In this document: positions 1 through 58,718 of the stretch, piece after piece
Numbering within the stretch: position 1 is the first letter of the stretch
How the letters are laid out: every line of letters starts with the position of its first letter
Source: an uncultured virus (IMG/VR IMGVR_UViG_3300042445_002545)
Lineage: Duplodnaviria > Heunggongvirae > Uroviricota > Caudoviricetes
Direction: 5' to 3' (one strand)
Virus record (IMG/VR): IMGVR_UViG_3300042445_002545
DNA: 64,000 bases
Notes under the pieces: model-generated
Told to the model about the DNA's origin: nothing
What the model saw: only the letters and a program-made list of their open reading frames with translations
Database searches by the model: none
Program-made: the position numbers and the translations under genes

Positions 1-139
1 ACAAGTGTTTGGCAAAAAAGCGGTTTTGGTTATTAATTTAAAGTTTGTTTTTTATTATCGTGTTCTTGGCTTCGGGAAAACGATAGTTTTTATTTATCCG
101 CTTCTTCGCCAAGCACTCGAACGTTATAAGCAATAAAAA

Positions 140-373
140 TTACTTAGTTAGCTCTTCACACCAACATCCCCATCCTGTAAATTCACCTTTCTTTCGGTAT
201 GCTTCCAAGTCATCATTGTAAAACCGCTTTCCCCAATCAGGGCAATCCATGTGATGCCATTTCCACATTGCTTCTGCCATGTCAACTGCTTTTATAATAA
301 CAGGTTCTTTTAATGATAATTGCCCTTCCGTTTCCATTCCTTTGTAAGCATACCAACAAATAAATCTTTTCAT
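140..373 (-). CDS. Cassette-borne hypothetical protein (77 aa)
   Basis: ORF fills the space between two attC-like sites. Confidence 0.7.
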   Translation of the reverse strand: MKRFICWYAYKGMETEGQLSLKEPVIIKAVDMAEAMWKWHHMDCPDWGKRFYNDDLEAYRKKGEFTGWGCWCEELTK

Positions 374-484
374 AAATCGTAATTTTTACAGCTTATAACA
401 GCACCTAACAAAAATGGCTGCTACAAGCATTTGTTTTTAATTCAGAAGTTATTACAAGCAGCCACTTCTGTTAGCTGCAAAACG

Positions 485-706
485 TTATATGCAATGCTCC
501 GACCGCACATAACCATTATCACATTTACATTGAACTTGCACTTGCACAGGGTTAGGAACTCCGCAACATCCATATTCCTTGTAGTTGCCACAGCACTCCG
601 CTTCAATTTCAATCGTGTAACCATACCCACCACAAGCACTGCATATAACATCACCTTGCAAAAATGAGGGGTTATGTGGTTCATTAATGTTTTGTTCTTC
701 GCTCAT
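485..706 (-). CDS. Cassette-borne Cys-rich putative zinc-binding protein (73 aa), copy 1
   Basis: CSACGGYG, CC, CKCDNG motifs; near-identical copy at 13301-13522 with mostly synonymous changes. Confidence 0.7.
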   Translation of the reverse strand: MSEEQNINEPHNPSFLQGDVICSACGGYGYTIEIEAECCGNYKEYGCCGVPNPVQVQVQCKCDNGYVRSEHCI

Positions 707-785
707 AATTTTGTTGTTAAAATGAAAATTTGTTCTTCGTATTCCCGCACTTCTGCAAGCTGCAAAAAGTTATGTGTAATAAAAA

Positions 786-8795: not shown

Positions 8796-9143
8796 TTAAA
8801 ATTCCAAATCATCATCTAATTTAGGTTCCTTTTTTTCTTTTTTTGTTTTGCTTTTAATTTTTTTGGTTTCACCAGCAACGACTTTTTCTCCAATCGCAAT
8901 ACCTCTAAGATTGGTATAGTACTTACCTTGATATTGATTACCTGTTAATGTAAATGCTACCATAACTTCTTCACCATTAATAAATAAATCTAACTTTTCA
9001 CAGTTATCATTTACAAACTCAATTTTAATATCTTGAATAAACTCATCTTCATTTCTGATTATGATTTCTCGCTTTTTAAAGCCACTAGCATATTTTTCAA
9101 TAGAACCAATTTCTAGTATAATACCTTCTAATACATAATGCAT
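8796..9143 (-). CDS. DUF3127-like OB-fold protein (Bacteroidota SSB-like)
   Basis: GFKKREIII, F..D.C..LD, G.EV.V.F.L.G, KYYTNL and acidic tail DDDLEF. Confidence 0.7.
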   Translation of the reverse strand: MHYVLEGIILEIGSIEKYASGFKKREIIIRNEDEFIQDIKIEFVNDNCEKLDLFINGEEVMVAFTLTGNQYQGKYYTNLRGIAIGEKVVAGETKKIKSKTKKEKKEPKLDDDLEF

Positions 9144-12023: not shown

Positions 12024-12071
12024 TATAAATCTATTTTTAGCAAATATACTATTTAATCATTTAAATAGCCA

Positions 12072-12479
12072 CTAATTTTGTTGTTTTTTAAATGATTTTA
12101 ATAATCCATTTATATTTTCATAACCAGATGGGTTTGCTGAATGAACAATAAAGTCTGGTAGTTTTAAATCATTATCAATACAATAATCAACTAACCATTT
12201 TGCTGAATCCATTCCAGTATATTCTCGGTTATTGTCAATATCAAACCATTCCTCAATTGGTAGAACCCCCTTTAAGTTTGTATCATCACCCAAGTCATGG
12301 TCAAATGAAATTAAATCAGGTAATCCATTTTTTTCAATCCATTTAACGAATTGACCATGTGACCTAACAATATCCCATTCTTCATAGTATATGTTTAAAT
12401 CAGAAACCCTATAACCCATGTAATGGATTTTAGGACAATTTAATGGTACTCTTAAGTCATCCAAAAATAATCTTTTCAT
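12072..12479 (-). CDS. Cyclic-phosphate-processing receiver-domain protein
   Basis: LFLDDLR, ISFDHDLG, TGMD, VHSANP signature. Confidence 0.75.
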   Translation of the reverse strand: MKRLFLDDLRVPLNCPKIHYMGYRVSDLNIYYEEWDIVRSHGQFVKWIEKNGLPDLISFDHDLGDDTNLKGVLPIEEWFDIDNNREYTGMDSAKWLVDYCIDNDLKLPDFIVHSANPSGYENINGLLKSFKKQQN

Positions 12480-13253: not shown

Positions 13254-13300
13254 TGATTATTAATTTATTTTAGTGATGTGTTATGAGGGTTAGCCATTAG

Positions 13301-13522
13301 TTATATGCAATGCTCCGACCGCACATAACCATTATCACATTTACATTGAACTTGCACTTGCACAGGGTTAGGCACTCCGCAACATCCGTATTCTTTGTAG
13401 TTACCACAGCACTCCGCTTCGATTTCAATCGTGTAACCATTTCCACCACAAGCACTGCATATAACAGCACCTTGCAAAAATGCGGGGTCTTGTGGTTCAT
13501 TGATGTTTTGTTCTTCGCTCAT
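13301..13522 (-). CDS. Cassette-borne Cys-rich putative zinc-binding protein, copy 2
   Basis: Paralog of 485-706. Confidence 0.7.
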   Translation of the reverse strand: MSEEQNINEPQDPAFLQGAVICSACGGNGYTIEIEAECCGNYKEYGCCGVPNPVQVQVQCKCDNGYVRSEHCI

Positions 13523-13591
13523 AATTTTGTTGTTAAATTGAAAATTTGTTCTCCGTAATCCCGCACTTCTGCAAGCTGCCTTCCGTTATCT

Positions 13592-13873
13592 TCAATTGTC
13601 ACTTATACTCGGTTCGACCTCAATAAATAAACTATTAATAACTTCTTCGTCATAAAAGAATGACTGACTTTCTCCAATAATTTTAAAAGATACACCTTCA
13701 TAGTCAGCTGAATTAATTTCAATTAACATTTGTTGACCATTAATAAGAGAAAGTAATCCTTTAGTTCCTTTTTCTATTTCATCCCAATCGGAACTATCTA
13801 CTTCTTGAATAAACATTTTTTGAATTGAACCGTTACCCAATTCCATTTCTACTTCTAAAATTTCATTTTCCAT
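13592..13873 (-). CDS. Cassette-borne acidic hypothetical protein
   Basis: ORF fills cassette B. Confidence 0.7.
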   Translation of the reverse strand: MENEILEVEMELGNGSIQKMFIQEVDSSDWDEIEKGTKGLLSLINGQQMLIEINSADYEGVSFKIIGESQSFFYDEEVINSLFIEVEPSISDN

Positions 13874-13998
13874 TTTTATACTATTTATTAAATTATACTT
13901 AAAAACAACTAAAGATAACAGTGGTTACAATCAAACGGCTGAATCAACCATTATGCTCAAGCCGTCTGCTCGTAGCCACAAAACGTTATAAGAAATAG

Positions 13999-14193
13999 CT
14001 ACGATTCTTTTTCATAAGCAACTATTTCCTCTAAAAAAATGCAATCCGTAGGGTATTCATCAATATTGTAAGATTGACCTACTAATTTACAACTTACACA
14101 ATTTGCCCCCATATCAAAAGACCATTCAATATATTCAGGGCAATTTTTACTTTTACAAAATTCGTTAAAGCATTTTTTTTCATTCGTTTCCAT
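13999..14193 (-). CDS. Cassette-borne Cys-rich hypothetical protein
   Basis: ORF fills cassette C. Confidence 0.65.
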   Translation of the reverse strand: METNEKKCFNEFCKSKNCPEYIEWSFDMGANCVSCKLVGQSYNIDEYPTDCIFLEEIVAYEKES

Positions 14194-14358
14194 AATTACG
14201 TTTGTTTAATGAACCGCTACTTCTTATAACAAGTGTTTGGCAAAAAAGCGGTTTTGGTTATTAATTTAAAGTTTGTTTTTTATTATCGTGTTCTTGGCTT
14301 CGGGAAAACGATAGTTTTTATTTATCCGCTTCTTCGCCAAGCACTCGAACGTTATGCG

Positions 14359-14643
14359 TCATTGCAATCCATCCCACAATGCCAGTGCCGACATCGTTGC
14401 AAATAATAATTGTCGTGGATACCATAAATACCATCTGCAATTAACCATCTTTATTCCGCAAGGCACTGTCAACCACAACGCCATCACACACCCATACACA
14501 ATACTACTGCACCAAGCACCTGTTATTATCTGTAATAACAATATCGGAAGTGCAGCGTATTTTCGCCAAGCCACAACCACGCTATGCAACGAACGCATAA
14601 CACGGGTTTGGCAAAATGGCTGTTCGGTAATTCTATCAATCAT
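14359..14643 (-). CDS. Cassette-borne membrane protein
   Basis: Hydrophobic ORF starting inside the attC-like site of cassette D. Confidence 0.55.
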   Translation of the reverse strand: MIDRITEQPFCQTRVMRSLHSVVVAWRKYAALPILLLQIITGAWCSSIVYGCVMALWLTVPCGIKMVNCRWYLWYPRQLLFATMSALALWDGLQ

Positions 14644-14737
14644 TTGTTTTTAATTTTAAGTTCAGTAATTCTATCAAACATTCGGTTCAGCCACTTCGCC
14701 AAGCCCGATAACGTTAGGTTCAATTAAAAACATACAA

Positions 14738-14923
14738 TCATCTCCAATTAAGTGTTTTTAATAAGTCTTTACCATCTATAATATAGAATAATTTTTTATA
14801 GGTCTCAAGTAAATCCATACTAAAAGAACCACACAAACCATATTCGGTTTTATAACCTATCATTGTTCCATTGAAGGAACTACTCCTTTCCTCTCTTATC
14901 CAAAGAATATTTATATTTTCCAT
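14738..14923 (-). CDS. Cassette-borne hypothetical protein
   Basis: ORF fills cassette E. Confidence 0.65.
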   Translation of the reverse strand: MENINILWIREERSSSFNGTMIGYKTEYGLCGSFSMDLLETYKKLFYIIDGKDLLKTLNWR

Positions 14924-15008
14924 TAATATTTTAAATTTATTTCTAAATGTTTTTAACTAAACCTAACAAATGATAAACAACATTAAAACGATTGTTTATC
15001 ATCAGACG

Positions 15009-15257
15009 TTAGCAAACATTAAAGAAAGCCTTTGCATTATCAACACTACCGTTTTTAACATAATTTGGATACACAACATCGTTAAAATGTTTTAACTGTT
15101 CTTTGTACCAATTGCCACTTTCTCTATTTAACACAGACATTGCAGTAGTTCCGTCAAAATCTTCATTGTCTGTGTATCTCATTTTTTCATCAAGATGTTC
15201 ATCAGCATAACAAGTAGCTATCCACCTTGCAAATAAAAACATTTTAACTTCATCCAT
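15009..15257 (-). CDS. Cassette-borne hypothetical protein
   Basis: ORF fills cassette F; its stop codon is the TAA of the crossover GTTA. Confidence 0.7.
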   Translation of the reverse strand: MDEVKMFLFARWIATCYADEHLDEKMRYTDNEDFDGTTAMSVLNRESGNWYKEQLKHFNDVVYPNYVKNGSVDNAKAFFNVC

Positions 15258-15520
15258 AATAATAAACGTTTGCTAACAAGGTATATACGCAATACCCTAT
15301 TAAGGTTTGTACTAAATTTAAAATTTCTCCATCGGGTACTGCGTATATACCCAATCGTTATGTAACATTAAAACGCTTACATAACATCAAGTATAAGAAA
15401 TTGGGGGTTATGAGTCTATTGAGAACTTCGGCTTCTATAACTGACCCGATTCGATGAACCCACGCCAACTTTTTCAAGTCCCCAACTTTTTATACTTGCG
15501 ATACGTTAGGTCCAATTAAA

Positions 15521-15718
15521 TTATTGTTTTGAGTTTATTTCTTTAATAAAGAGTTCGTAAGCCTCTTCTTGTACCTTATTACTCATACTCCAAAAATCAT
15601 CTAAAACTTGTTGATTGCTCACCCACTTAGCAAATTCTATTGCGAGTGATTTTGGATTTATATATATTTCTACATCGCCCTTTGCTGATATACCTGGTGA
15701 TTCAAATTTATTTTCCAT
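15521..15718 (-). CDS. Cassette-borne hypothetical protein
   Basis: ORF fills cassette H. Confidence 0.65.
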   Translation of the reverse strand: MENKFESPGISAKGDVEIYINPKSLAIEFAKWVSNQQVLDDFWSMSNKVQEEAYELFIKEINSKQ

Positions 15719-15813
15719 ATTTTCTATTTTTTTAATCGGTAAAACAATAATTTAACTAAACCTAACAAATGATAAACAACATTAAAACGATTGTTTATCA
15801 TCGGACGTTATGC

Positions 15814-16026
15814 TCAAGTGCTTTCAATTTCTATAACCTTTAACTCGTAGCGTTTTCCACCTAAAGAAAACTGAAACCGCTCGTCTGTCTTTAATAAGTT
15901 TTCAGCAACACTAGCAACAGCATCTTCAGTTACATCATGCTTTTCTCCAATCCACATTCCTTTTTTAACTTTACCTACGTAAATTCTACTCGTTAAAGGT
16001 GAGCAACCTATTTTAAAATCTGACAT
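15814..16026 (-). CDS. Cassette-borne small phage protein
   Basis: ORF fills cassette I (GCSPLTSRIYVGK..K.DVT). Confidence 0.7.
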   Translation of the reverse strand: MSDFKIGCSPLTSRIYVGKVKKGMWIGEKHDVTEDAVASVAENLLKTDERFQFSLGGKRYELKVIEIEST

Positions 16027-16130
16027 TTCTGTTAATTTATAAAGTTTATTTTTCTATCTCGCACCTAAGCATAACAGCATCTTAGCGCAACTTTCAGTAT
16101 GCGCTAAGTTGCCTACCGTTATAAACCATA

Positions 16131-16337
16131 TTAAAAGATGAACCATCCAAAGAACTTTTCTAAATATGGAAGTATTCCTAACCACATTATTAGCTTAAAT
16201 AACCCTATACCAATCCATTTACCAACATTCGCTGATACTACCACAATCAATAAACCAAAGAAAATACGGCTTATAACAGCACCTATATTCAATTGCGGTT
16301 TTTGTGGTTCATTCAAGTTTTCATTTTCTAATTTCAT
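16131..16337 (-). CDS. Cassette-borne membrane protein
   Basis: Hydrophobic ORF starting inside the attC-like site of cassette J. Confidence 0.6.
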   Translation of the reverse strand: MKLENENLNEPQKPQLNIGAVISRIFFGLLIVVVSANVGKWIGIGLFKLIMWLGILPYLEKFFGWFIF

Positions 16338-16509
16338 TTTATCTTAATTTAAAGTTTTCGTTTTCAAAGTTCGCAACTAAATATAGCTGCAAAACGTTAT
16401 AAGTAATAAAATAAAAATTATGAGTTTTTTATTTGTTCACCTCTGTCTTTTATAACCAAATCAAATTTACGTTCAACACCATGGTTTGTTTTTTCCATAA
16501 TTTTATTTT

Positions 16510-17043
16510 TTAATCCCACCATCTATTGATTTTTTTGGACATGATTCTAAATACTAAATCCTTAGCTTTTTCTTGTCTTAAGTCACCCATAATCATAGCA
16601 ACTAATTTTTTATCATTATGGTCAGTAGTAAATCTTTTTTGATTTTCTTTAATAAAGATAATTGCTCGTTTATGCCACGTTGGAAACTTTCTAAAATACG
16701 AATCAAAATCTTCACTGATAGTATTAATATTTATTTCACTATAACCTGGTTTATCTTCAATATCTGTAAATATCATTTCACTTTCATGGTAATCAGTATA
16801 TTCTGAATCGTAATAAGAGTCTTTAACTTTATTAATTAAATCAGCACAAATTAACATATCTTTAGCATCTTCTTGTGCCCTGGTATGTCTATCCTTACTA
16901 CCGATATAATTAGATTGTCTCCTTAATTTAAATTCAATAATCTGATATATAAACCAAGAGTCCCAATCCCTATCTTTCCAAATTATAGGTAACCAAGCCC
17001 ATAGATTACTAATTCCTATTTTTAAGGTTCTAAATATTCTCAT
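16510..17043 (-). CDS. Hypothetical phage protein
   Basis: 177-aa ORF with WLPIIWKDRDWD and C-terminal WWD. Confidence 0.7.
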   Translation of the reverse strand: MRIFRTLKIGISNLWAWLPIIWKDRDWDSWFIYQIIEFKLRRQSNYIGSKDRHTRAQEDAKDMLICADLINKVKDSYYDSEYTDYHESEMIFTDIEDKPGYSEININTISEDFDSYFRKFPTWHKRAIIFIKENQKRFTTDHNDKKLVAMIMGDLRQEKAKDLVFRIMSKKINRWWD

Positions 17044-20158: not shown

Positions 20159-20599
20159 TTAAATTTTTACGTTAAGTTCTCGTTCTAAATCACGTTTTTT
20201 AATTGTATCACGTTTATCGTGAAGCTTTTTACCTCTACATAGTGCTATTTCAATTTTTATTAAACCTTTGTCGGTAATAATAACACTAATTGGTACTATT
20301 GTCAACCCTTTTTGCTCTACATTTTCATTTAATTTTATTATTTCTTTTTTGTTCAACAATAATTTCCTTAACCTGGTTGGTTCATGATTCGTATGAATAC
20401 CACTTTGTTTATATTCAGATATATTCATACCTTTAATAAACAGTTCGTCATTTTTAATATAACAATAACCCTCAGATATTGACACCTTATGATTACGTAT
20501 TGATTTTACTTCACTACCAATTAGTTTGATACCAGCTGTTAGTTTATAAATAAACTCATATTCAAATGAAGCTTTTTTATTTCGTGTTATAACTTCCAT
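20159..20599 (-). CDS. smpB: SsrA-binding protein SmpB
   Basis: NKKASFEY, AGIKLIGSEVKSIR, RKLLLNKKEI, GKKLHDKR; start moved to ATG 20599, downstream of promoter 20612-20643. Confidence 0.95.
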   Translation of the reverse strand: MEVITRNKKASFEYEFIYKLTAGIKLIGSEVKSIRNHKVSISEGYCYIKNDELFIKGMNISEYKQSGIHTNHEPTRLRKLLLNKKEIIKLNENVEQKGLTIVPISVIITDKGLIKIEIALCRGKKLHDKRDTIKKRDLERELNVKI

Positions 20600-21553
20600 A
20601 ATTAATTTTGACAAAGGTAAGGATAATAAAGACATTATCCAAATATTTTTAATGTTTTTTTTATTTAAAATGTAATGTGGATGTTTCGGTAATCCTAATC
20701 ATCTCATTTTCATACCAATCAATGATAATTCTTTCGATGAATTCGTTTTCATATTTTTGTTTAAAACATGTGATTATATCACATTCATTTACTATTTTAC
20801 CATTCAATTTTGAAATTACCCAAGATGTTGGACCTAATGTTACTTTATATTTGTATTTTATATAATCCAAAATATCAGATTTAGCCTCTATCTGTTTATT
20901 TTTAAACCAGCTTAATAAGTAATTATTTAATGATTCACCATCTAATATGTCAATACTAATAGATTTTTTAACTTTATCACAAAAAGAATTAAAATTAATA
21001 CTATGGTTATCATGTTGATATTTATATCTCATAGTTAAACCATTAAATAGGTAATGTTTATTAACATACCATAAAACAAATTCAGATTCGGTCATAAACC
21101 TTTAAGTATGTTATTAATTTCTATACAAGTTTCGTAATCTTCAATGCGTTCAAAATAAGCAATTGAAAAGTTTAAGTGTGATGACCAATCTGATTTTTCA
21201 ACGTTTATAGTAATGACATCATCATTAACCATTAGGTTGGCAACATTGGCTATTTTTTCATTATTTTTTATTGAGTTTTTAATTTCATTTAGAGTTTCAG
21301 TAAATAATAAATCCTTTTCATTTTGAATGAAATTAATAATTTCTCTATAACTTTCAAATTCAAGATTTATAGCCACTAATTTAAATTAAAATCAACCCCG
21401 TTATCATCACCATCATCATTTGATATGTAAACCCCTTCAATTTCATCACCAAATTCATCTAATACACTAACATCTATCTTACCATCACCATAATACGTGA
21501 TGTGTACGATGTATTCGCCAAAATCAAATTCTTTGGTAATAGGTTTGTTCATA

Positions 21554-21937
21554 TTAATAAATATCTAGCACACTCATGTTAATTTCTTTTTTTTCTAAAT
21601 CTACTGTCTTAATAATAATTTTTATTTCATCACCTAATCTCATTTTTCTACCAGTTATTTCTTCAATAAAACAATGGTTTTTAACATCAGGTGTCCAAGT
21701 TCTATAACCTATATCTGATGATTTAACTAACCCCTCACAACCATTTTCTGGTATTTCAACGAATATACCATAGTCTTGAACTGAAGTTATTACACCAGTA
21801 TATATTTTACCTAATTTATCCATCAAGTATTGACATTGCTTATACTTAATGCTATCTCTACTAGCTTTTTGTGCTACCCTTTCTCTTTGAGAAAGATGTG
21901 CTGCCATTTTTTCTAATTCATCAGATTTATACTTCAT
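21554..21937 (-). CDS. rnr: RNase R C-terminal part (last RNB helix plus S1 domain)
   Basis: SQRERVAQKASRDSIKYKQ, GVITSVQDYGIFVEI, CEGLV, LGDEIKI. Confidence 0.85.
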   Translation of the reverse strand: MKYKSDELEKMAAHLSQRERVAQKASRDSIKYKQCQYLMDKLGKIYTGVITSVQDYGIFVEIPENGCEGLVKSSDIGYRTWTPDVKNHCFIEEITGRKMRLGDEIKIIIKTVDLEKKEINMSVLDIY

Positions 21938-22002: not shown

Positions 22003-23046
22003 ATGATGAGAATTATGACATTTGAGAATATCAATAGATTAAGTAGTATGTACTACTTAAATAAAGCAATTAATGAATCTAAATTGCTTGTCGAATCATA
22101 CCCAAATGTTAATTCTTTATTATTAGAAGCTGATGATGATTCAGCATCTTATGAATGGGATTTTGTTAATAATAAATTCTATGATAGAGTAAATAATATT
22201 GAAACTGATATTAAAAAATCAGCATCATATGTTAGAACAGCTGAACAAGGTATAGATTTCATTAAGACATTAGTTGCTAAAGTTGCTGAATTACCAGATA
22301 AATTAAAATCTCGTGTTGTTAAGGTAGCAATAGCATCAATGGCATTAACAATGGGTTATAATCAATTGGTTGATGTTGATAGCAAAGTAGATGCTTTACC
22401 TAAAAACAATGTAGTAACGATGGTTGGTGACCTATTAGATAATGCTATAACTAAAAAAGAAGTACCACAAAAAGCCGAAAAACCTGTAGTAAAAGAAAAG
22501 TTTTCAAATAAAATAATTGATTTATTAAAAACTCATGAAGGTATTGGTGGTAAACCAGTACTTACCGCTTATAATATTGGTGACGGTGCATATACAATTG
22601 GATACGGTCACGCTGTATTTAAGGATATTTCTAGAGGTGATAATAGTAGTAGTTATGATTTCTTAGTATCATACGATGAGTATGAAAAAATGAAACAAAG
22701 AGGTGAAAAGGTAACCATAACACCAGAACAAGCTGAACAATTATTAAAAGATGATGTTAAAATAGCGGCTGAAGGTTTAGATAGATTGTTGAATGAATGG
22801 AAAGCTGATGGTGTTAACCCTAAAATAACTCAACCTATGTATGATGCTATGGTTTCAATGATTTATAATATGGGTGTTACCACATTTAGAAAAAGTGAAT
22901 TTATTCAATTAGTAAAACGTGGTAAATTTAAACAAGCTGCTGAAGCAATTAAAAGCACCAGCAGCCAAATGTTTAGAAAATATCCAGGATTAATAGTTAG
23001 AAGAGGTGATGAGTCTCAAACATTCACAGGTAATTACCCAACGTAA
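22003..23046 (+). CDS. GH24 lysozyme-domain protein with long N-terminal extension
   Basis: HEG...AYNIGDGAYTIGYGH, YDAMVSMIYNMG, GLIVRR. Confidence 0.85.
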   Translation: MMRIMTFENINRLSSMYYLNKAINESKLLVESYPNVNSLLLEADDDSASYEWDFVNNKFYDRVNNIETDIKKSASYVRTAEQGIDFIKTLVAKVAELPDKLKSRVVKVAIASMALTMGYNQLVDVDSKVDALPKNNVVTMVGDLLDNAITKKEVPQKAEKPVVKEKFSNKIIDLLKTHEGIGGKPVLTAYNIGDGAYTIGYGHAVFKDISRGDNSSSYDFLVSYDEYEKMKQRGEKVTITPEQAEQLLKDDVKIAAEGLDRLLNEWKADGVNPKITQPMYDAMVSMIYNMGVTTFRKSEFIQLVKRGKFKQAAEAIKSTSSQMFRKYPGLIVRRGDESQTFTGNYPT

Positions 23047-24575
23047 CCATCGTTACCCAATACACCACTAATTATTCTATGGAATATTAAATCAGGATAT
23101 CTTCTGATTGGGCTAGTTGTATGCATATAAAACTTAACACCTAAACCATAATGTCCTATATTTTTAGTTTGATAATTAGCTTTGGTCATGCATCTAACTA
23201 CTAAATTATTAATTATATTTTCTTCTGGTGTATCTTTAACTTCCTTAAGTAACCCATTTAGTTTATCCTTAATCTTATTATCATCAGATAAGTCTAATTT
23301 ATAACCAATCAATTCTATAAATGTTTTTAGTGATTCTAATCTAGTTGGGTCTGGTTCATCATGTGTTCTATGCAATGTCACAACACCTTTTTTTGTTACG
23401 TATTCACAAACTTGTCTGTTTGTTAAAACCATAAATTCCTCAATCAACCAATTTGATTCTTTTTGCTCAGTAAAATAAACGCCAAGTGGGTTTCCATTTA
23501 AATCTAAATCAAACTTAACTTCAGAACCTCTAAATTTTAATGAATTTTTATCACTTCTAATTTTTCTTATTTTACTTGCGTATCGATTCAAATCTAATAT
23601 AGCTCTTTTTAACTCTTTATTATAGATGTCACCACCTTCAATTACTTTTTGAACTTCAGTATATGTTAATCGGTAATTTGAATTGATTATACCACGACAA
23701 AACTTTTCTTTAATTACTTTACCATTTTGGTCAAGTGTGAATATAAATGAATAAACTAATTTATCAGTATGTGGGTTAAGTGAGCAAAGATTATTACTTA
23801 ATTTTTCTGGTAACATCGGTACAACTCTATCAACTAAATAAACCGATGTACCACGTTTATATGCCTCATCATCTATAGCTGTATTTGGTTTTACATAATA
23901 AGATACATCCGCAATATGAACAGCAACTTCAATATTACCATCAACCCATTGTACTGATAAGGCATCATCTAAATCTTTAGCTGTTTCACCATCAATAGTA
24001 AAAGTTAATATGTCACGCATATCTAATCTTTTAGCTATTTCTTTTTCTGAAATAACATCTGATATTAATTCAGACTCATTAATTACATTTTGTTTAAATT
24101 CATATGGTAGATTATATTCTTCCAATATACTATGAATTTCAACATCATTATTACCTGATTGACCTAATACTCTAATTACTTCACCATTAGGGTTTTTCTG
24201 ATTATCACCCCAAGTTGTCATTTTCACAACAACCTTTTCACCATTAGATGCACCCATTGTTTTATTTAATGGGATGAATATATCAATATTCATTCGTTTA
24301 TTATCTGGTATTAGAAAAGCATGCTTTAATGATATTTGCATAGTACCAACGAACTCAGTCTTGAATCGTTCTACAATCTCAATTACCTTACCTTCAAATT
24401 GACCATTATCAGTTTTGGTTAATTCAACTTTAACTATATCTAAATGCAATGCTTTGTTTACACTACCTTTATTGATATGTATACCCTTTTTTATATCTTG
24501 GTTTGTAACATAACCTGAACCGAATCCCGTAAGACCAATTTCACCAGTTACAATATCTCCTTTTTTAAACATCAA
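23034..24575 (-). CDS. rnr: RNase R N-terminal part (cold-shock domains plus RNB catalytic domain)
   Basis: TIDGETAKDLDDALS, HIADVS, RGTSVYL, PMLPEKLSNNLCSL, HTTSPIRRYPDL. Confidence 0.92.
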   Translation of the reverse strand: MMFKKGDIVTGEIGLTGFGSGYVTNQDIKKGIHINKGSVNKALHLDIVKVELTKTDNGQFEGKVIEIVERFKTEFVGTMQISLKHAFLIPDNKRMNIDIFIPLNKTMGASNGEKVVVKMTTWGDNQKNPNGEVIRVLGQSGNNDVEIHSILEEYNLPYEFKQNVINESELISDVISEKEIAKRLDMRDILTFTIDGETAKDLDDALSVQWVDGNIEVAVHIADVSYYVKPNTAIDDEAYKRGTSVYLVDRVVPMLPEKLSNNLCSLNPHTDKLVYSFIFTLDQNGKVIKEKFCRGIINSNYRLTYTEVQKVIEGGDIYNKELKRAILDLNRYASKIRKIRSDKNSLKFRGSEVKFDLDLNGNPLGVYFTEQKESNWLIEEFMVLTNRQVCEYVTKKGVVTLHRTHDEPDPTRLESLKTFIELIGYKLDLSDDNKIKDKLNGLLKEVKDTPEENIINNLVVRCMTKANYQTKNIGHYGLGVKFYMHTTSPIRRYPDLIFHRIISGVLGNDGYVG

Positions 24576-25765: not shown

Positions 25766-26380
25766 TTACTTTGTTGCATCCGTTATATGATGAACAATTA
25801 CTTTTATTTTTTGTTTACTGGCCCAGTCTTGGAATACTGGTAAATGGTCATCCCTATCTTCCCAGATTTCAATTTCTTCTAGGCTTGGGTTGTTATTAAC
25901 TAATTTATTCAATACTTCTATTTTAAAGTCAGCAGTATCTAAATTACCAGTTTTATAGATATAATCGTTAAACTTTAATCCCTTACTGTTTAATATATCA
26001 GTAACCAATTTACCAACACCAGCATGTCTACCAGTTAATAATAATACCATAGTATCTGGTCTACTAGATTGTTCTTTATAAGCTGATAATGTTTTTGGTA
26101 TTGGGTTATTATCAAAAATATTTCGTTTAAGACCAATTTCCTTTAAACCTGGTGCTAATTTAGTGTCTTTTTGAAAATAAATTCTACTATCTAGACTTTC
26201 AGGTCTACCCCACCAACCTTTAAATGGCCATTCAAATCCAAATTCTTTTTGCCACAAAGGTTTACCACTTTCTGGTGTATCAGTATCAATTAATGTTCCG
26301 TCAAAATCAAATATAGCTACTCGTTTGATAGTTTCATCAATAACACCTTCCCTTAATATCATTCTAATTTTATCTTTCAT
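25766..26380 (-). CDS. HAD-family phosphatase (RNA-repair HAD-like)
   Basis: FDFDGTL, LLTGR, K, IWEDR. Confidence 0.75.
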   Translation of the reverse strand: MKDKIRMILREGVIDETIKRVAIFDFDGTLIDTDTPESGKPLWQKEFGFEWPFKGWWGRPESLDSRIYFQKDTKLAPGLKEIGLKRNIFDNNPIPKTLSAYKEQSSRPDTMVLLLTGRHAGVGKLVTDILNSKGLKFNDYIYKTGNLDTADFKIEVLNKLVNNNPSLEEIEIWEDRDDHLPVFQDWASKQKIKVIVHHITDATK

Positions 26381-26403
26381 TTTACAAATATACAAATAAA
26401 TAT

Positions 26404-26973
26404 TTAATTTTCAAAAGGATACTCCTTTTTTGTTCCATCAGCCATTGAATAAACCACTTTAGTTACAACAACCTCAACTGGTTCAATGTCTTTAAATTTA
26501 TCAACATATTTATCAATTTTATCTGGTTTGATATAGGCAATCGTTGCGTGTGGGTGGTAATCTGGGTATGATGTGGTATGTGGGAATTTAGTAAACTTTT
26601 TATTTTCACTATGTAAATCTTCACTTTCCACGTCAAATTTTAATACACCAAATTTTGGATTATTAAATGATGATACTTTTTGCATCTTCAATTCTGGTTT
26701 TTTTAAACCATTAATAACCTTTTCAATATCTTCTAATGGTATATCACTATGTAATCCATATAACACTGTAACATGTGGTTCAGTTTCAAACCCATATCCT
26801 CTATCACCATCTTCACCAAGATATAAATCATCTTTATCAATCATTGATTCAAGATTATCCCAATCTTCTTTATTCACATCTAAAAATACCATAACACAAC
26901 CGTATTCAAACTTATCGCTGTGTTTACCTTCATTTAATTTTTTTCTAAATATACTTTTAATAAAATCTTTCAT
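26404..26973 (-). CDS. 2H phosphoesterase (LigT / Acb1-like)
   Basis: Two HxT motifs, PHVTV and PHATI. Confidence 0.8.
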   Translation of the reverse strand: MKDFIKSIFRKKLNEGKHSDKFEYGCVMVFLDVNKEDWDNLESMIDKDDLYLGEDGDRGYGFETEPHVTVLYGLHSDIPLEDIEKVINGLKKPELKMQKVSSFNNPKFGVLKFDVESEDLHSENKKFTKFPHTTSYPDYHPHATIAYIKPDKIDKYVDKFKDIEPVEVVVTKVVYSMADGTKKEYPFEN

Positions 26974-27322
26974 ATTAATAATAATACTATTAATGAACCA
27001 ACTATTAACCCCCAAATAAAACTATTGAAATTTGATTTAGTTTTTGGTTTTGATTCTTTGTTTGTTATTAGTGCACCAGAAATCCTTTTTGTAGCACTAC
27101 CTATTAGTTTCATATCAATAGGTCCGTGAGCATTTATTGTTTGTCTTAAAGCACCTTTTATTCTATTTCGCTCAACTACTCTTTCTTTATTTAACTTCTC
27201 AATAGATTTAATATTAATGTCCTCATATTTCATGAAGACATTAATAATTTCATCGCTAGTAATTGTTTTATTTTTTAATAATTCCTGAACTTCAAGGTCA
27301 ATTTTTTTTACTCTCCTACTCA

Positions 27323-34149: not shown

Positions 34150-34163
34150 TATAAATAATTTAG

Positions 34164-34236
34164 TGCACCTGGAGGGCCTCGAACCCTCTACCTTCCCGTT
34201 AAAAGCGGGAAGCCCGTCCACATGAGCTTCAGGCGC
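34164..34236 (-). tRNA. tRNA-Lys(TTT)
   Basis: Cloverleaf; anticodon arm TCCCG-CTTTTAA-CGGGA. Confidence 0.9.
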
Positions 34237-34271
34237 ATAACATAGCCATTTATTGTGTCTATGTGTCTATG

Positions 34272-50650: not shown

Positions 50651-50962
50651 ATGGATAAGGTATATTTACTAGCAAATGAAGAATGGACACAATTTAAAAT
50701 TGGTGTCACAAAAAACGTAACTAATAAACGAAAAAGTGATTTACAAACTGGTAATGGTTCTGAAATAATTATTGTTAATACTTTTGAAACTAGATTTTCA
50801 AACAAAGTTGAGAAGTGGTTACATAGAAAATATAATTCAAAGCGATTAGTTGGTGAATGGTTTGCGCTTAATGACAATGATATTACTAATTTCATATCTG
50901 ATTGTCAAAAAGCGCATGATACATTCCAATGTTTAATCGATAGTGAGAATCCTTTTATTTAA
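50651..50962 (+). CDS. T5orf172/MUG113-type GIY-YIG domain protein
   Basis: VYLL..FKIGVT..R..LQTGN..EKWLHRKY..GEWF. Confidence 0.85.
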   Translation: MDKVYLLANEEWTQFKIGVTKNVTNKRKSDLQTGNGSEIIIVNTFETRFSNKVEKWLHRKYNSKRLVGEWFALNDNDITNFISDCQKAHDTFQCLIDSENPFI

Positions 50963-52173
50963 GAATCGAATCTAACTTCTAAAGTTGTATAATCTTGTTT
51001 TATATTATAGAATTCTTTTCTAATATAAATTAATAAAGCATTTACCAAACCTTGGTCAACCTTTTTAGGTAAATCTGAATTATCAAATATACTATCCATT
51101 TCTTCAATAGCCTGGTCAGCCATTGCTATTAAATTTTCCAAATCAACTTCACCACGTCTAATTGCAAGTAACTCTTGAGCATCTTCTCTACGAACATTAA
51201 TACCTTCACCTCTACCAATCTCTTGGGCCATTCTAATAAGTCGGATACAATGCATCATATTCTTACCATCGATGCGTTGACCATGTTCTTGCGTTTCAAC
51301 ATAACGAGTATCATTACGGTTTTCCAACCATTCTTGGTATTCTCTATAATCTTTGCAGTGCACAGTGTAACCGTCTTTGTTGTAGATAATATTACAAATA
51401 GGTGTTTCACCTTTTGGTATGCTTGAAAGACGTAGTTGGTTGGATTCAGCCGCATTTGTACCTTCACCAGACTTGACTAAACCTTTATAACCAAATCCTA
51501 ATGGCAAATTGTTCTTAGTTCTATTTTGTTTTGCAGACTCCCTTACATTTTCAGGAATTGATTCACTAAAACACAAAGTTGCTAACATATCAAAGTAAAC
51601 AGCATAAACGTCTCTTGCATTTGGAACATTTACAACCCCAATAAATTTTTCTTCGTAGTTGTAATCCTCGTTCCAAACTTTCCATGGAATAGATTTTTCA
51701 CCTTCAATAACATAACAGAAATCCAATACATCTTTACGAGTCACTTTGTCTTTCTCCCAGTTTTGTTTCTTATCAAGACCTTTCGCCTTCTTGATTTGTT
51801 GTCTAGCGTAGCCACCGAATGAATCCTTACAAATCTTTGTAATAAACTCATCCTTATGCGCAATTATAACATCAAACAATGGATGTTTAGATACAATGCA
51901 ATCTTCAGGGCTATTAAGTAATTCTAAAACTGTTGGGTTATTGCTACCCATTAGTTCTAGGAAACGTCTAATTTCCCACCCAACGTAATCTTTATTTACG
52001 TTTATTTGTTCAACATACCCAGTACCTAAGATATAATCTTGTGGTAGTATATATACAAATTTTTTGTCTATATCAGATGTTGGTGTCTGCGTTCCATACG
52101 CTTGTGACCCAACTATTGTTTCAAATAGGATTAACCCATTTTCAACTAAAAATTCATGCGTTATTTGTTTCAT
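50959..52173 (-). CDS. Pol-beta-superfamily nucleotidyltransferase (YcgL/RlaP-like)
   Basis: GSQAYGTQTPTSDID, NNPTVLELL, KNMMHCIRL, LLAIRRGE. Confidence 0.85.
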   Translation of the reverse strand: MKQITHEFLVENGLILFETIVGSQAYGTQTPTSDIDKKFVYILPQDYILGTGYVEQINVNKDYVGWEIRRFLELMGSNNPTVLELLNSPEDCIVSKHPLFDVIIAHKDEFITKICKDSFGGYARQQIKKAKGLDKKQNWEKDKVTRKDVLDFCYVIEGEKSIPWKVWNEDYNYEEKFIGVVNVPNARDVYAVYFDMLATLCFSESIPENVRESAKQNRTKNNLPLGFGYKGLVKSGEGTNAAESNQLRLSSIPKGETPICNIIYNKDGYTVHCKDYREYQEWLENRNDTRYVETQEHGQRIDGKNMMHCIRLIRMAQEIGRGEGINVRREDAQELLAIRRGEVDLENLIAMADQAIEEMDSIFDNSDLPKKVDQGLVNALLIYIRKEFYNIKQDYTTLEVRFDS

Positions 52174-52950: not shown

Positions 52951-53603
52951 TTATTTTTTTCAGAAGCATATTTAACACCCATTATTGTCCCCACAATACT
53001 AAATGCGTTGGTTAATAATATACCAACGATATTACTCCATGTTGAGCCTACAATTGCTGTATCTCTATTTGTAAGTAAAGAAATAATAAAGACACCTGTG
53101 GTTATAATACCTACGCTGATAATAATCCATAGTGCAACTTTAACAATTGACCCTATCAATTCAAATTGTGACTTCTTCTGTAATAATTCTAAATCATTTT
53201 CAACTGAAGCTCTAGCATTTTCAGCTTCACGTCTAGCTATTTCAGATTCTTCTCTGGCATTTTCAGCTTCTATTTTTAAATGTTCAGCTTCAAATCTAGC
53301 TGATTCAGCTTCATTTTTAGCACATTCATTTTCTTTTAAACTATGAATTAATTCTTCTTGTATTCGAATATTCTCTTCCTTCCAGGTAATTAATTCATTA
53401 TTTTGTTTTTGAATTTGTTTTGTGATTTCCAACCTTTTTTTTCGGGTTGTCATATCTTTGTCAACACAACTTTTGATATATTTTTCAAATAGTTCATCAC
53501 CATCAGTATCAATAACTTTAAGAATATTACCCTCAAGTGAAATCTTTTTAGTTTTATGTAACTGAATTAATAAATCTTTAGTCTTGTTGTCAACTTTAAT
53601 CAT
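52947..53603 (-). CDS. Coiled-coil protein with two C-terminal TMs
   Basis: AENAR-type heptad repeats; overlaps the stop codon of the receiver gene. Confidence 0.7.
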   Translation of the reverse strand: MIKVDNKTKDLLIQLHKTKKISLEGNILKVIDTDGDELFEKYIKSCVDKDMTTRKKRLEITKQIQKQNNELITWKEENIRIQEELIHSLKENECAKNEAESARFEAEHLKIEAENAREESEIARREAENARASVENDLELLQKKSQFELIGSIVKVALWIIISVGIITTGVFIISLLTNRDTAIVGSTWSNIVGILLTNAFSIVGTIMGVKYASEKNN

Positions 53604-54037
53604 TTATATACTTTAAATTTGTTCGTTCTATTCTTATAACCATCATAATCATTTCTAAATTCTTCCAATCTAGGTTCTATTTCATCAGATTTAATAATCC
53701 AGAATTGAGCACCAGCTTGTAACGCTTTTGATTGTTCTTCAGCTTCATCACTTGATGATATTATTCCTATTACAACATGATTACCATATTCGAAGTTTAT
53801 TTTTCTAACTAATTCAATACCATCAAATGATGAACCAATTATATTTAAATCTACAAATACGCATTCTGGTTTGTCATGGATATTATTAGTGTCAAACCAT
53901 TCTTTAAATAGCTTTTCAGCTTCATCTGCACTAGTCAGACTTTCTAATGATAATGTGATATCTAATAAGCTGCAAGCATCTTCAAATACTAAATGGAATA
54001 AATCTTCATCGTCCACTAATAAAATTGAGTTAATCAT
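53600..54037 (-). CDS. Single-domain response regulator (receiver)
   Basis: LLVDDE, FVDLNI, DGIELV, ISSS, IIK. Confidence 0.9.
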   Translation of the reverse strand: MINSILLVDDEDLFHLVFEDACSLLDITLSLESLTSADEAEKLFKEWFDTNNIHDKPECVFVDLNIIGSSFDGIELVRKINFEYGNHVVIGIISSSDEAEEQSKALQAGAQFWIIKSDEIEPRLEEFRNDYDGYKNRTNKFKVYK

Positions 54038-54048
54038 AATTGTTTTTT

Positions 54049-55476
54049 TTATTTAATTTTTATTTTTGTCCCTTGTGACATTTTTTCTACTGTTATACTA
54101 AACCCATGTTCTTTAAGAATTGCTTTACAGATGTTTAAACCTAAACCTGTACCAGTTTCTTTTTGACCTTCTTTTCTTACATACGGTTTTGATAACTCAT
54201 CAAATTCCTTTTGTGTAATACCTCTACCATTGTCCTCAACACAAATATAACCATCTTCTAAGTATATTTTAATAAATCTACTCGGACTGTCATTATATTT
54301 TAAACCATTTCTTATTAGGTTATCTATTGCTGTACAAAATAATGCTTCATTAACTTCAATTGTGGGTAAATTATTATCCAGTAAAACTTGTGATTTATAT
54401 GCTGTTGCTGATAAGTAATCTTGGAGGATGTCTTTGATATTGTATTCACCCTTATTTAAGGTTGAGTCTTTTTTAACTAGGTTTGTGAATTCATATACAC
54501 CTTTATAAACTTTTTGTGTATGCTTTAGTCCCTCTTTAATCATTTTAAGTGGTGCCTCAATTTTAAGGTTATTAATATCTTCTTGTGTTAATCTCCTTTC
54601 TAATGAAGAAAGACCTCTGGGCATATAAGTATTAATACCAGAATGCATATCATGTCTTAAAATTTTAGCAGCATGTTCTAGATATGTGTTTTTCTTTTCA
54701 ATTTCTTCAGATTGTAAAATTTTATCTGTAACATCAATGGCAATTTTCATAATTTTAACCACCTTTCCATTATCATCTAGAATTGGGTTATATGTTGCTT
54801 GTAGCCAAATTATTTCACCACCATGTTTAATTCTAGAAAATCTAGATGATATAAATTCACCTCTACTAAGTTTAACCCAAAATTCTTTATAATCCTCACT
54901 TTTTGAATACTCACTATCAACAAATATACTATGGTGTTTACCGATTAATTCTTCTTGAGAATAACCCATGATATGACAAAAATTATCATTAGCTAATATT
55001 ATATTACCAAATAAATCAAATTCAATAACCGCATTTGATTGGTTAATAGCATTAATTATATTTTTAATCTCTAATTCATTTTTTTTAACTAATGTAACAT
55101 CATGCCTAATTGAAATAAAACCCATTAATTTGCCATTAATATCAAATTCAGCTTTTATATAGGTATCAACATAGTAAAAATCACCGTTTTTAGTTTTATT
55201 TGTAACAACTGAGTTCCAGATACCCTTGTCAACTATAACAGTCTTATACATGTTTGACCAAAAATTTTTATTATGAATCCCAGAATTAACGATATTATGG
55301 TTTTTACCCACAACTTCTTCTAATGACCACCCAGAAACTTCTTCGAATTTTTTATTAACATATGTGATGTTACCTTTAGCATCTGCTTTAGAAATTAAAA
55401 CTGAACTATCAACAAATTGACTAAAGTCATATAATTCTTTATTTAAGTCATTAATTTTATCTAAAGGGTCTTGCAT
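54049..55476 (-). CDS. PAS-PAS sensor histidine kinase
   Basis: Two PAS/PAC domains, LRHDM H-box, DNLIRNGLKY, DNGRG, GTGLGL. Confidence 0.92.
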   Translation of the reverse strand: MQDPLDKINDLNKELYDFSQFVDSSVLISKADAKGNITYVNKKFEEVSGWSLEEVVGKNHNIVNSGIHNKNFWSNMYKTVIVDKGIWNSVVTNKTKNGDFYYVDTYIKAEFDINGKLMGFISIRHDVTLVKKNELEIKNIINAINQSNAVIEFDLFGNIILANDNFCHIMGYSQEELIGKHHSIFVDSEYSKSEDYKEFWVKLSRGEFISSRFSRIKHGGEIIWLQATYNPILDDNGKVVKIMKIAIDVTDKILQSEEIEKKNTYLEHAAKILRHDMHSGINTYMPRGLSSLERRLTQEDINNLKIEAPLKMIKEGLKHTQKVYKGVYEFTNLVKKDSTLNKGEYNIKDILQDYLSATAYKSQVLLDNNLPTIEVNEALFCTAIDNLIRNGLKYNDSPSRFIKIYLEDGYICVEDNGRGITQKEFDELSKPYVRKEGQKETGTGLGLNICKAILKEHGFSITVEKMSQGTKIKIK

Positions 55477-58708: not shown

Positions 58709-58718
58709 ATTTTTAAAA

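What the first reader, a model, noticed from the sequence alone, without database searches (positions are those of the whole stretch)
13300..16402. Integron-like gene-cassette array inside a phage genome
Ten consecutive units each begin with G|TT and end in a roughly 55-140 bp imperfect palindrome TAAC..GTTA. The bases after each GTT are complementary, over about 13-19 nt, to the R'' end of the NEXT palindrome rather than the one they touch. Examples: GTTATAAGAAATAGC 13985 vs GCTACTTCTTATAAC ending 14230; GTTATGCTCAAGTGC 15807 vs GCACCTAAGCATAAC ending 16075. This is the signature of circular cassettes integrated at G|TT, as in attC recombination. Most mismatches are A.C on the plus strand, hence G.T on the minus strand, matching the known bottom-strand folding bias of attC sites. 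No tyrosine recombinase is present in the window.
Basis: partly seen in the sequence, partly recalled or inferred. Interest (0 to 1): 0.85.

Follow-up and report, generated by a model that had tools for sequence, protein, structure and literature searches.

The report
Integron-like gene cassette array in phage
A 3-kb stretch of this large freshwater phage is a row of ten swappable mini-gene cassettes joined by folded DNA sites, working like a bacterial integron but built differently, and it shows how such phages trade small accessory genes.

Summary
Confirmed. Window 13300-16402 holds ten consecutive units, each G|TTA + 15-nt arm, a small minus-strand ORF, the complementary arm + TAAC, then a 40-120-nt hairpin. 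A second short array lies at 1-776. All arm mismatches are A.C on plus, so G.T on minus, and the minus strand folds better in 12 of 12 sites.

Cassette turnover is seen directly. A joint skipping exactly two cassettes (13300-13984) occurs in 4 of 4 lake metagenomes laid and in an IMG/VR relative. Other 99-100% identical relatives switch to different cassettes exactly at TAAC. 80%-identical relatives have no array. Four of four indels among Muminvirus phages are bounded at GTTA.

The same hairpin family occurs in at least 123 Bacteroidota genome loci. There it sits beside a Xer/IntI-like tyrosine recombinase that lacks the IntI-specific insertion. Some phage contigs carry a short form of this recombinase next to their arrays. 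None is in this window or in the fragments of its relatives.

Verdict: an integron-like system that is not a classical integron. In phages the genes have mirror-image polarity. A G.T wobble at arm position 11 is found in 46 of 46 units.

This scan noted the same system before on other DNA (six notes). Qi et al. 2023 reported phage CALINs, including one in a Polaribacter phage.

The parts
13254..13299 (-). Flank at the array end that, in phage contigs with a recombinase, faces the recombinase (attI-like position). Holds three further GTTA/TAAC words.
   Evidence: Relatives L213 and L214 and the metagenome joint all break exactly at 13299/13300.
13300..13584 (-). Cassette 1: arms 13300-13314 / 13451-13465, ORF 13301..13522 (73 aa, Cys-rich, start codon inside the hairpin), hairpin 13466-13584.
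   Evidence: A paralogous copy lies at 484-773 (270 of 290 identical). Absent together with cassette 2 in natural variants.
13585..13984 (-). Cassette 2: arms 13585 / 13919, ORF 13592..13873 (93 aa), hairpin 13920-13984.
13985..14350 (-). Cassette 3: arms 13985 / 14230, ORF 13999..14193 (64 aa), hairpin 14231-14350.
   Evidence: The arm and leader family is shared with two Muminvirus cassettes that carry other genes. The hairpin is identical to window 1-127 (127 of 127).
14351..14712 (-). Cassette 4: arms 14351 / 14601 (one bulge), ORF 14359..14643 (94 aa, hydrophobic by eye, no topology prediction run; longest ORF starts in the hairpin), hairpin 14602-14712.
   Evidence: The hairpin is 91% identical to one between DNA methylase genes of Muminvirus phages, with homology starting at TAAC and ending at GTTAG.
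14713..15007 (-). Cassette 5: arms 14713 / 14967, ORF 14738..14923 (61 aa), small hairpin 14968-15007.
   Evidence: The hairpin region 14954-15011 is repeated at 15753-15810 (57 of 58).
15008..15356 (-). Cassette 6: arms 15008 / 15277, ORF 15009..15257 (82 aa), hairpin 15278-15356.
15357..15504 (-). Cassette 7, empty: the arms pair directly (15357-15385, no ORF), followed by a 119-nt hairpin 15386-15504.
15505..15806 (-). Cassette 8: arms 15505 / 15766, ORF 15521..15718 (65 aa), small hairpin 15767-15806.
15807..16117 (-). Cassette 9: arms 15807 / 16075, ORF 15814..16026 (70 aa, DUF7446 / phrog_1578), hairpin 16076-16117.
   Evidence: The gene body is 99.6% identical in relative L217 but has different hairpins on both sides.
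16118..16395 (-). Cassette 10: arms 16118 / 16277, ORF 16131..16337 (68 aa, hydrophobic by eye, start inside the hairpin), hairpin 16278-16395.
   Evidence: Relatives L215 and L216 diverge from the window exactly at 16118.
16396..16402 (-). Terminal half-site GTTATAA. On the gene strand the array opens with ..CTTATAAC.
   Evidence: The same opening word precedes a different first hairpin in L217.
1..776 (-). Second, cut-off array: hairpin copy 1-122, cassette 123-483 (ORF 140..373), cassette 484-768 (ORF 442..684, paralogue of cassette 1), terminal GTTATGTG at 769-776.

Best explanation
The region is an array of ten mobile gene cassettes of an integron-like site-specific recombination system that is spread through Bacteroidota and their phages.

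Structure. On the plus strand each cassette runs G|TTA-arm, gene (antisense), arm'-TAAC, hairpin, G|. If circularised, the two arms and the hairpin form one long imperfect hairpin, like an attC site. From base to tip it has a ~15-bp stem carrying the crossover word, a 4-5-nt one-sided bulge, a 3-bp helix, a 12-19-bp helix and a variable loop.

Mechanism. The window's minus strand is the folding strand, because every arm mismatch is G.T there. The crossover lies at TAA|C on that strand. A Xer/IntI-like tyrosine recombinase, encoded in host chromosomes and in some phages but not in this window, is inferred to excise and insert cassettes on single-stranded DNA. In this phage the array is therefore a recombinase-less cluster, like a CALIN, whose content is turning over in nature.

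Shown here: the anatomy, the strand bias, the breakpoints of natural variants and the genomic association with the recombinase.

Inferred: catalysis by that recombinase, the single-stranded substrate, and the hairpin upstream of each phage gene supplying its expression signals and sometimes its start codon.
For: Anatomy and chance. The minus strand is more stable than plus for 12 of 12 circularised sites.

Arm position 11 is non-Watson-Crick in 46 of 46 curated units from the window, Muminvirus, one chromosome and four viral contigs; 48 of the 66 mismatches seen at any arm position are G(5' arm).T.

Own lineage:
- The joint 13299>13985 skips 685 nt, exactly two cassettes, with 6 shared letters. 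It is seen in 4 of 4 runs laid, with no differences from the window listed for the long bridging contigs of X7 and X8.
- L214 shows the same deletion.
- L213, L215 and L216 diverge exactly after TAAC.
- L218 and L219 lack the array.

Muminvirus: 4 of 4 indels or replacements are bounded at GTTA, and the hairpins at the two ends are non-homologous.

Internal duplicates are bounded at the cores.

Hairpin family: at least 123 genome loci; 11 of 23 pairs show compensatory changes in 115 copies; 23 of 151 Flavobacterium species genomes against 0 for the reversed-pattern control.

Recombinase:
- In Arundinibacter the order is recombinase, SSB, attI-like repeats, then at least 4 cassettes.
- Homologues were found in 14 further loci, eight with long matches and six fragments only; they lie beside the hairpin in six examined.
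- Arrays abut a short recombinase in 5 of 80 viral loci.
Against: No recombinase was found in the window. None was found in 6 fragments of close relatives or in 5 large, more distant relatives, one of them 100% complete. Activity in this phage therefore rests on an unseen enzyme.

No circle junction or biochemical test is available.

Two module sharings break at the hairpin|GTTA junction, which a single fixed crossover does not explain. These are the hairpin at 14602-14712 against Muminvirus and the DUF7446 gene body against L217.

The crossover can only be placed within 4-8 shared letters.

Tyrosine recombinases are common in Bacteroidota, so some adjacencies could be chance. No background rate was computed.
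Confidence: 0.8

Rival explanations
1. It is a classical integron fragment (a true CALIN). On this view the sites are ordinary attC sites served by a genuine IntI integron integrase of the host.
For: G|TT core, own-arm complementarity, and folding strand opposite the top strand. Qi et al. 2023 (PMC9892861, passages read) report that IntI1 recombined the bottom strand of a site from the methylase CALIN of Polaribacter phage P12002L. That phage has sites of the same small-hairpin family.
Against: All 8 array-adjacent recombinases tested score below the integron-integrase cut-off: TIGR02249 gives 101-214 bits against a cut-off of 265. All match it in two stretches split at the IntI insertion.

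Against VchIntIA the query has 35 residues where IntI has 77.

The second position after GTT is mostly T, not R. The arms are 15 bp, not 7. In the window the genes are on the folding strand.

I could not confirm which P12002L site was assayed, because the supplements are closed.
Confidence: 0.1
2. The elements are regulatory promoter and stem-loop cassettes, like the PeSLs of T4-type phages. Genes are shuffled by ordinary homologous recombination between similar intergenic motifs.
For: PeSLs flank small non-essential genes in hyperplastic regions and give indels and mini-circles (PMC2839356, abstract read). Here too, hairpin families recur between unrelated genes.
Against: Breakpoints sit at a 4-8-nt core between hairpins that are not homologous to each other (only AACGTTA is shared). 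Homologous exchange does not explain the gene-flanking arm complementarity or the invariant G.T at position 11. The sites are associated with a tyrosine recombinase.
Confidence: 0.06
3. The pairings are RNA structures of the polycistronic mRNA, serving processing, stability or termination, and have no role in DNA recombination.
For: In the phage the G.T (G.U) strand is the mRNA-sense strand, and every gene is enclosed by a stem.
Against: In bacterial loci the folding strand is antisense to 110 of 126 neighbouring ORFs of at least 100 aa. The strand bias therefore follows site polarity, not transcription. The DNA indels are bounded at the cores. Rfam gives no match at E up to 1.
Confidence: 0.04

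Closest known systems
Integrons and CALINs (IntI, attI, attC-bounded cassettes; sedentary chromosomal integrons such as the Vibrio superintegron, recalled)
   Same: - Promoterless-size cassettes arranged in a row.
- Imperfect palindromic sites with AAC...GTT cores.
- Crossover at G|TT.
- Each cassette's first bases pair with its own far arm.
- One strand folds preferentially.
- Site families are conserved while the genes differ.
- In chromosomes, a recombinase sits at one end next to a repeat-bearing attI-like site.
   Different: - The recombinase lacks the IntI-specific insertion and scores below the family cut-off. Long forms carry a ~290-aa N-terminal extension.
- The arms are ~15 bp with an invariant G.T at position 11.
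- There is a one-sided 4-5-nt bulge in place of the classical spacer and extrahelical-base layout.
- The large hairpins have ~70-nt loops with direct repeats.
- In phages the genes lie on the folding strand, with the site upstream of its gene.
Phage CALINs of Qi et al. 2023 (Front Microbiol 14:1091391; PMC9892861)
   Same: Clusters of attC-like sites without an integrase in virulent phages. They include a Flavobacteriaceae (Polaribacter) phage whose cassettes are DNA methylases. Recombination was bottom-strand specific in an IntI1 assay (passages read).
   Different: That study found 17 CALINs in 10,705 genomes using integron models. Its main text does not mention Flavobacterium or Bacteroidetes (0 occurrences), a Xer-like recombinase (0 occurrences of 'Xer'), long arms or inverted gene polarity. 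Its supplementary tables could not be seen.
PeSL mobile regulatory cassettes of T4-type phages (Arbiol et al. 2010, PMC2839356)
   Same: Small accessory genes in hyperplastic phage regions, each flanked by a stem-loop motif. Indels between close relatives occur at the motifs.
   Different: PeSLs are a promoter plus a terminator and recombine by homology. Here the breakpoints are at a fixed short core, the arms pair across the gene, and a tyrosine recombinase is associated.
Xer-dependent dif modules of Acinetobacter plasmids (recalled, not read here)
   Same: Gene modules bounded by inverted sites and moved by Xer-type tyrosine recombinases.
   Different: dif modules use conserved 28-bp duplex sites. 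Here only a 4-nt core is conserved in sequence, and what is kept is base-pairing within one strand.

Membership tests
Integron (sensu stricto) | IntI integrase with the IntI-specific insertion in the catalytic domain | tested here: not met
   None in the window. The 8 array-adjacent recombinases score 101-214 bits on TIGR02249 against a cut-off of 265, always in two stretches. There are 35 residues where VchIntIA has 77. The insertion is called essential for integron function in PMC8138268 (passage).
Integron (sensu stricto) | Cassettes bounded at G|TT of a core site, with the first bases of each cassette complementary to its own inverse core | tested here: met
   10 of 10 units in the window. 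Natural indels are bounded within the shared GTTA(TA).
Integron (sensu stricto) | Core consensus RYYYAAC / GTTRRRY | tested here: inconclusive
   The cores are (T/C)AAC / GTT(A/G). The fifth base is T in 7 of 11 window sites and so departs from R.
Integron (sensu stricto) | One (bottom) strand folds and recombines | tested here: inconclusive
   Folding bias: minus is more stable in 12 of 12 sites, and all 16 arm mismatches are G.T on minus. Recombination itself was not assayed.
Integron (sensu stricto) | Extrahelical bases and unpaired central spacer of attC | tested here: inconclusive
   A constant one-sided 4-5-nt bulge and a 2x2 internal loop are predicted. Their equivalence to the extrahelical bases cannot be judged from folds.
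Integron (sensu stricto) | Gene on the top strand with attC at its 3' end | tested here: not met
   Window: 9 of 9 cassette ORFs lie on the folding strand, with the site upstream. Bacterial loci do meet the feature, with 110 of 126 neighbouring ORFs on the top strand.
Integron (sensu stricto) | Sites called by attC covariance models (IntegronFinder, HattCI) | not testable with these tools
   No attC model is on hand. Rfam gave no match.
CALIN | Two or more attC-type sites in a row with no integrase nearby | tested here: met
   11 sites in 3.1 kb and no recombinase in 64 kb. This holds only if these sites are accepted as attC-type.
PeSL regulatory cassettes | Exchange by homology between similar promoter and stem-loop motifs | tested here: not met
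   The hairpins at the two ends of the indels are non-homologous, and only 7-8 nt are shared.
Xer/dif modules | Conserved duplex XerC/XerD binding arms around a 6-bp spacer | tested here: not met
   Arm sequences differ between units. Only the GTTA/TAAC core and the position-11 wobble are constant.

The most novel reading that the evidence does not exclude
Bacteroidota and their phages run a second, IntI-independent kind of integron. A Xer-like recombinase, in long forms with a triple N-terminal repeat domain, reads long single-strand hairpins whose strand choice is set by an invariant G.T one helical turn from the cut. Phages keep a mirror-image cassette pool in which the recombination site lies upstream of the gene and doubles as its promoter or leader. 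Lytic and jumbo phages without any recombinase therefore restock anti-defence genes, such as DNA methylases, by borrowing the enzyme of the host or of a co-infecting phage.
Probability: 0.45. Interest if true: 0.9.

Novelty: new variant of a known kind. Interest (0 to 1): 0.78.

Why it matters
Integrons are regarded as bacterial devices defined by IntI. Here the same logic appears with a different recombinase lineage and a different site design. It is abundant in Bacteroidota: at least 123 genome loci, and 23 of 151 Flavobacterium species with one narrow pattern.

It is also active in virulent and jumbo phages in lakes. In Muminvirus the cassettes include the DNA methylases that Nilsson et al. 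2020 linked to plating efficiency (PMC7077304, passages read). The system therefore probably drives rapid exchange of anti-restriction and other accessory genes.

It offers a culturable test bed, the Flavobacterium LMO strains and their phages. It also offers a natural experiment on how strand and orientation are chosen in single-strand recombination.

Tried and rejected
- Rfam on 12800-16800 at E up to 1: no family.
- The window's own assembly is not held. The nearest record, G001, does not cover the region and has no PF00589.
- PF00589 or the recombinase profile gave nothing in G006-G010 (fragments, 7-41% complete) or in G011-G015. Fragments cannot show absence.
- The records of L144, L157, L191 and L135 are not relatives of this phage by the RNB protein.
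- A strict arm scan of Polaribacter phage P12002L gave chance level, 4 hits against about 5 in shuffles. By eye its methylase region does hold decayed sites of the same small-hairpin family.
- No RNA holder was listed among the sequencing runs, so expression is untested.
- Other joints with short sides (20-48 nt) were set aside as repeats or other organisms.
- IS200/IS605-type and other transposase explanations: no such Pfam family in 98 ORFs.
- Paper searches for this system found no description: 'Flavobacterium phage'+attC; Muminvirus names; integron+attC+Bacteroidota; integron-like+Bacteroidetes+gene cassettes+tyrosine recombinase. Subscription journals and supplements were not searched.
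- A sigma-70 promoter scan was not run, because Bacteroidota promoters differ.
Full report
**Setting.** The window is part of a large AT-rich phage (29% G+C). Its genes lie almost all on the minus strand. It carries 19 tRNA genes, two sigma factors, SmpB, an RNase II/R homologue and RNA-repair enzymes. Related IMG/VR fragments of 24-52 kb are rated 7-15% complete by CheckV. Dividing their lengths by that completeness gives a genome of roughly 350 kb.

**Observation.** Reading 13000-16800 on both strands shows ten consecutive units starting at 13300, 13585, 13985, 14351, 14713, 15008, 15357, 15505, 15807 and 16118, closed by a last GTTA at 16396.
- On the plus strand each unit is GTTA plus about 11 further bases, then a small minus-strand ORF (61-94 aa; one unit is empty), then the complement of those bases ending in TAAC, then a hairpin of 40-120 nt that runs up to the next GTTA.
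- A 15-nt arm scan finds 17 pairs in the whole window against 4.9-6.0 in shuffles. Ten of them (9 of the 10 units, plus a cross-match between the two near-identical small hairpins) fall in these 3.1 kb, and two lie in a second, cut-off array at 123-776.
- In the 10 gapless units the arm mismatches are 16 A.C and 0 G.T on plus.

**Fold.** I joined each unit's two arms to its hairpin, as a circular cassette would have them, and folded with DNA parameters.
- The result is one repeated design: a stem of about 16 bp, four unpaired bases on the 5' side only, a 3-bp helix, a small mismatch, a long helix and a variable loop.
- The minus strand is more stable than the plus strand in 12 of 12 sites.
- I curated 46 units: window 10, Muminvirus 12, a bacterial chromosome 4 and four viral contigs 20. 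In all 46, position 11 counted from the G of GTT is non-Watson-Crick. Of the 66 mismatches at any arm position, 48 are G in the 5' arm opposite T.
- The units were chosen by number of pairs, not by mismatch position.

**Unrelated phages.** The hairpin at 14598-14717 is 91% identical to an intergenic element of Flavobacterium siphoviruses of the genus Muminvirus. Homology starts at TAAC and ends at GTTAG.
- The 8-kb early region of those phages is built the same way. It has at least 12 units, several of them DNA methylases.
- Five Muminvirus genomes are about 99.9% identical apart from four insertions or replacements. All four are bounded inside the shared GTTA(T/TAAG).
- The moved unit is always arm, gene, arm', hairpin.
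- The hairpins at the two ends of an inserted unit share only AACGTTA.
- No integrase is annotated in the 68 genes of filifjonk9-1.

**This phage's own lineage.**
- *Metagenome contigs.* I laid contigs of four lake metagenomes from four studies on 12000-17800. All four hold a joint from 13299 to 13985 that skips 685 nt, which is exactly cassettes 1 and 2, with six letters shared by both sides. For the long bridging contigs of X7 and X8 (sides of 246-249 nt; one contig is 975 nt long) no differences from the window are listed.
- *IMG/VR relatives*, found through the flanking gene 16510..17043 and compared:
  - L214 (100% identical) has the same deletion.
  - L213 (99.8%) is collinear down to 13300 and then differs directly after TAAC.
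  - L215 and L216 (99.1%) are collinear down to 16118 and then carry other cassettes directly after TAAC.
  - L217 (96.6%) opens the array with the same word but holds five other cassettes.
  - L218 and L219 (about 80%) have the two flanking genes adjacent, with no array.
- *Duplicates inside the window.* Window 1-127 equals 14229-14355 (127 of 127), with identity ending at GTTAT. Window 484-773 matches 13300-13589 (270 of 290), while the flanks are unrelated.

**Bacterial counterpart.**
Nearly all are Bacteroidota, many lie on large chromosomal contigs, and the elements are about 116 nt long. The same pattern occurs in 23 of 151 Flavobacterium species genomes. The reversed control pattern occurs in none.
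- *Structure support.* In 115 distinct copies, RNAalifold predicts 23 pairs, 11 of them with compensatory double changes. Nine pairs lie in columns fixed by my pattern and say nothing.
- *One locus in detail.* In Arundinibacter roseus the order is:
  - a 558-aa tyrosine recombinase;
  - an SSB gene;
  - a region with two direct repeats and an inverted repeat ending at G|TTGGCAG;
  - at least four cassettes with the same arm rule, including the position-11 mismatch.
- *Other loci.* tblastn finds homologues of the recombinase in 14 further loci, eight with long matches and six fragments only. They lie beside the hairpin, either co-oriented or divergent, in six that I examined.

**The recombinase is not an IntI.**
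- I tested eight array-adjacent enzymes, four bacterial and four from viral contigs plus one more viral. Their best NCBIfam match is the XerA type (155-218 bits, cut-off 220).
- Integron integrase TIGR02249 follows at 101-214 bits (cut-off 265), always in two stretches.
- Against the VchIntIA structure sequence the alignment breaks where IntI has 77 residues and the query has 35.
- The alignment of seven enzymes shows no insertion there.
- Smyshlyaev et al. 2021 state that this insertion is essential for integron function (PMC8138268, passage read).
- Two long forms have an N-terminal extension of about 290 aa with three similar W...W.(I/V)P segments.

**Phages with a recombinase.** At least 578 viral contigs encode relatives of the catalytic domain. 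In the best 80 loci (945 kb) strict units number 32 and 46 in the two orientations, against 13 in one shuffle. In L144, L153, L154, L157 and L164 an array runs up to a co-oriented recombinase of 223-298 aa.

**Polarity.**
- In bacterial loci, 110 of 126 neighbouring ORFs of at least 100 aa lie opposite the folding strand. This is the classical arrangement.
- In the window, in Muminvirus and in the viral contigs the genes lie on the folding strand.
- In loci around the relatives of gene 16510..17043, G.T-only units outnumber A.C-only units 52 to 13 on the gene strand.
- The strand bias thus follows site polarity and the recombinase end, not transcription. That argues against a pure RNA reading.
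- In phages the site lies upstream of its gene. In 3 of 9 window cassettes the longest ORF starts inside the hairpin and reads through the core. Cassette 1, its paralogue at 442..684 and cassette 10 have similar leader peptides.

**A complication.** The DUF7446 gene body (15805-16079) is 99.6% identical in L217 but has different hairpins on both sides. The hairpin at 14602-14712 is shared with Muminvirus between unrelated genes. The hairpin|GTTA junction has therefore also been a breakpoint. A rare exchange on the other strand would explain this. That is inference.

**Literature.**
- Nilsson et al. 2020 describe the Muminvirus phages and their variable methylases. Their main text has no occurrence of palindrome, cassette, hairpin, inverted repeat or integron (PMC7077304, find mode).
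- Qi et al. 2023 report 17 CALINs in 10,705 phage genomes. One is in the virulent Polaribacter phage P12002L and carries two methylases. IntI1 recombined the bottom strand of one of its sites (PMC9892861, passages). The methylase region of that phage has decayed sites of the same small-hairpin family. Which site was assayed is given in supplements that I could not see.
- Four searches found no description of a Xer-like, IntI-less cassette system in Bacteroidota.
- Six earlier notes of this scan describe the same system on other DNA.

**Conclusion.** The array is a recombinase-less member of an integron-like system with its own recombinase lineage, its own site design and, in phages, inverted gene polarity. 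What is not shown is catalysis, the single-stranded substrate, and where this phage gets the enzyme.

Noticed in passing
window 34163-36123 and 46851-50378: Two clusters with 19 tRNA genes in all, every one on the minus strand. They include three tRNA-Lys(ttt) and one with an odd anticodon loop.
   Followed up: no
window 20159..20635, 23034..24575, 21554..21937: Phage-encoded SmpB (PF01668, 179 bits), an RNase II/R-type RNB nuclease and an S1-domain protein. This is an unusual translation-rescue and RNA-decay set for a phage.
   Followed up: no
window 25766..27015, 50959..52173, 57650..60107, 63140..63973: An RNA-repair kit: a HAD/PNK-like protein, a 2'-5' RNA ligase/Acb1-like protein, an RlaP nucleotidyltransferase, two RNA ligases and a DNA ligase.
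   Followed up: no
window 53600..55476 and 12072..12479: A PAS histidine kinase with an adjacent response-regulator receiver, and a separate cREC_REC domain protein just beside the array.
   Followed up: no
window 13466-13522, 16278-16337, 650-684: Three long hairpins encode similar N-terminal leader peptides (..NEPQ.P....G.V|I) that read through the hairpin's 3' arm and the GTTAT core into different cassette bodies.
   Followed up: partly
A4 alignment; for example L020 5991-6116, window 14602-14712: The ~70-nt loops of the large hairpins hold two to four direct repeats, for example AGCAC..AAC spaced about 18 nt apart, and TGATAGAATTAC.GAAC twice in the window copy. These may be binding sites for an accessory domain.
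   Followed up: no
window 14910-15103 and 15686-15879: Summed contig depth at the two small hairpins reaches 255 and 458 in run X8, against roughly 0-29 in most other bins (peaks of 24-79 at other hairpin-bearing bins). This suggests the element is very abundant in other contexts in lake metagenomes.
   Followed up: no
L020 4185..4532: An SSB gene lies between the recombinase and the first cassette in Arundinibacter. I did not test whether this is general.
   Followed up: no
window 8796..9143 and L004 13419..13763: The window phage and the unrelated Muminvirus both encode a DUF3127 protein (annotation).
   Followed up: no
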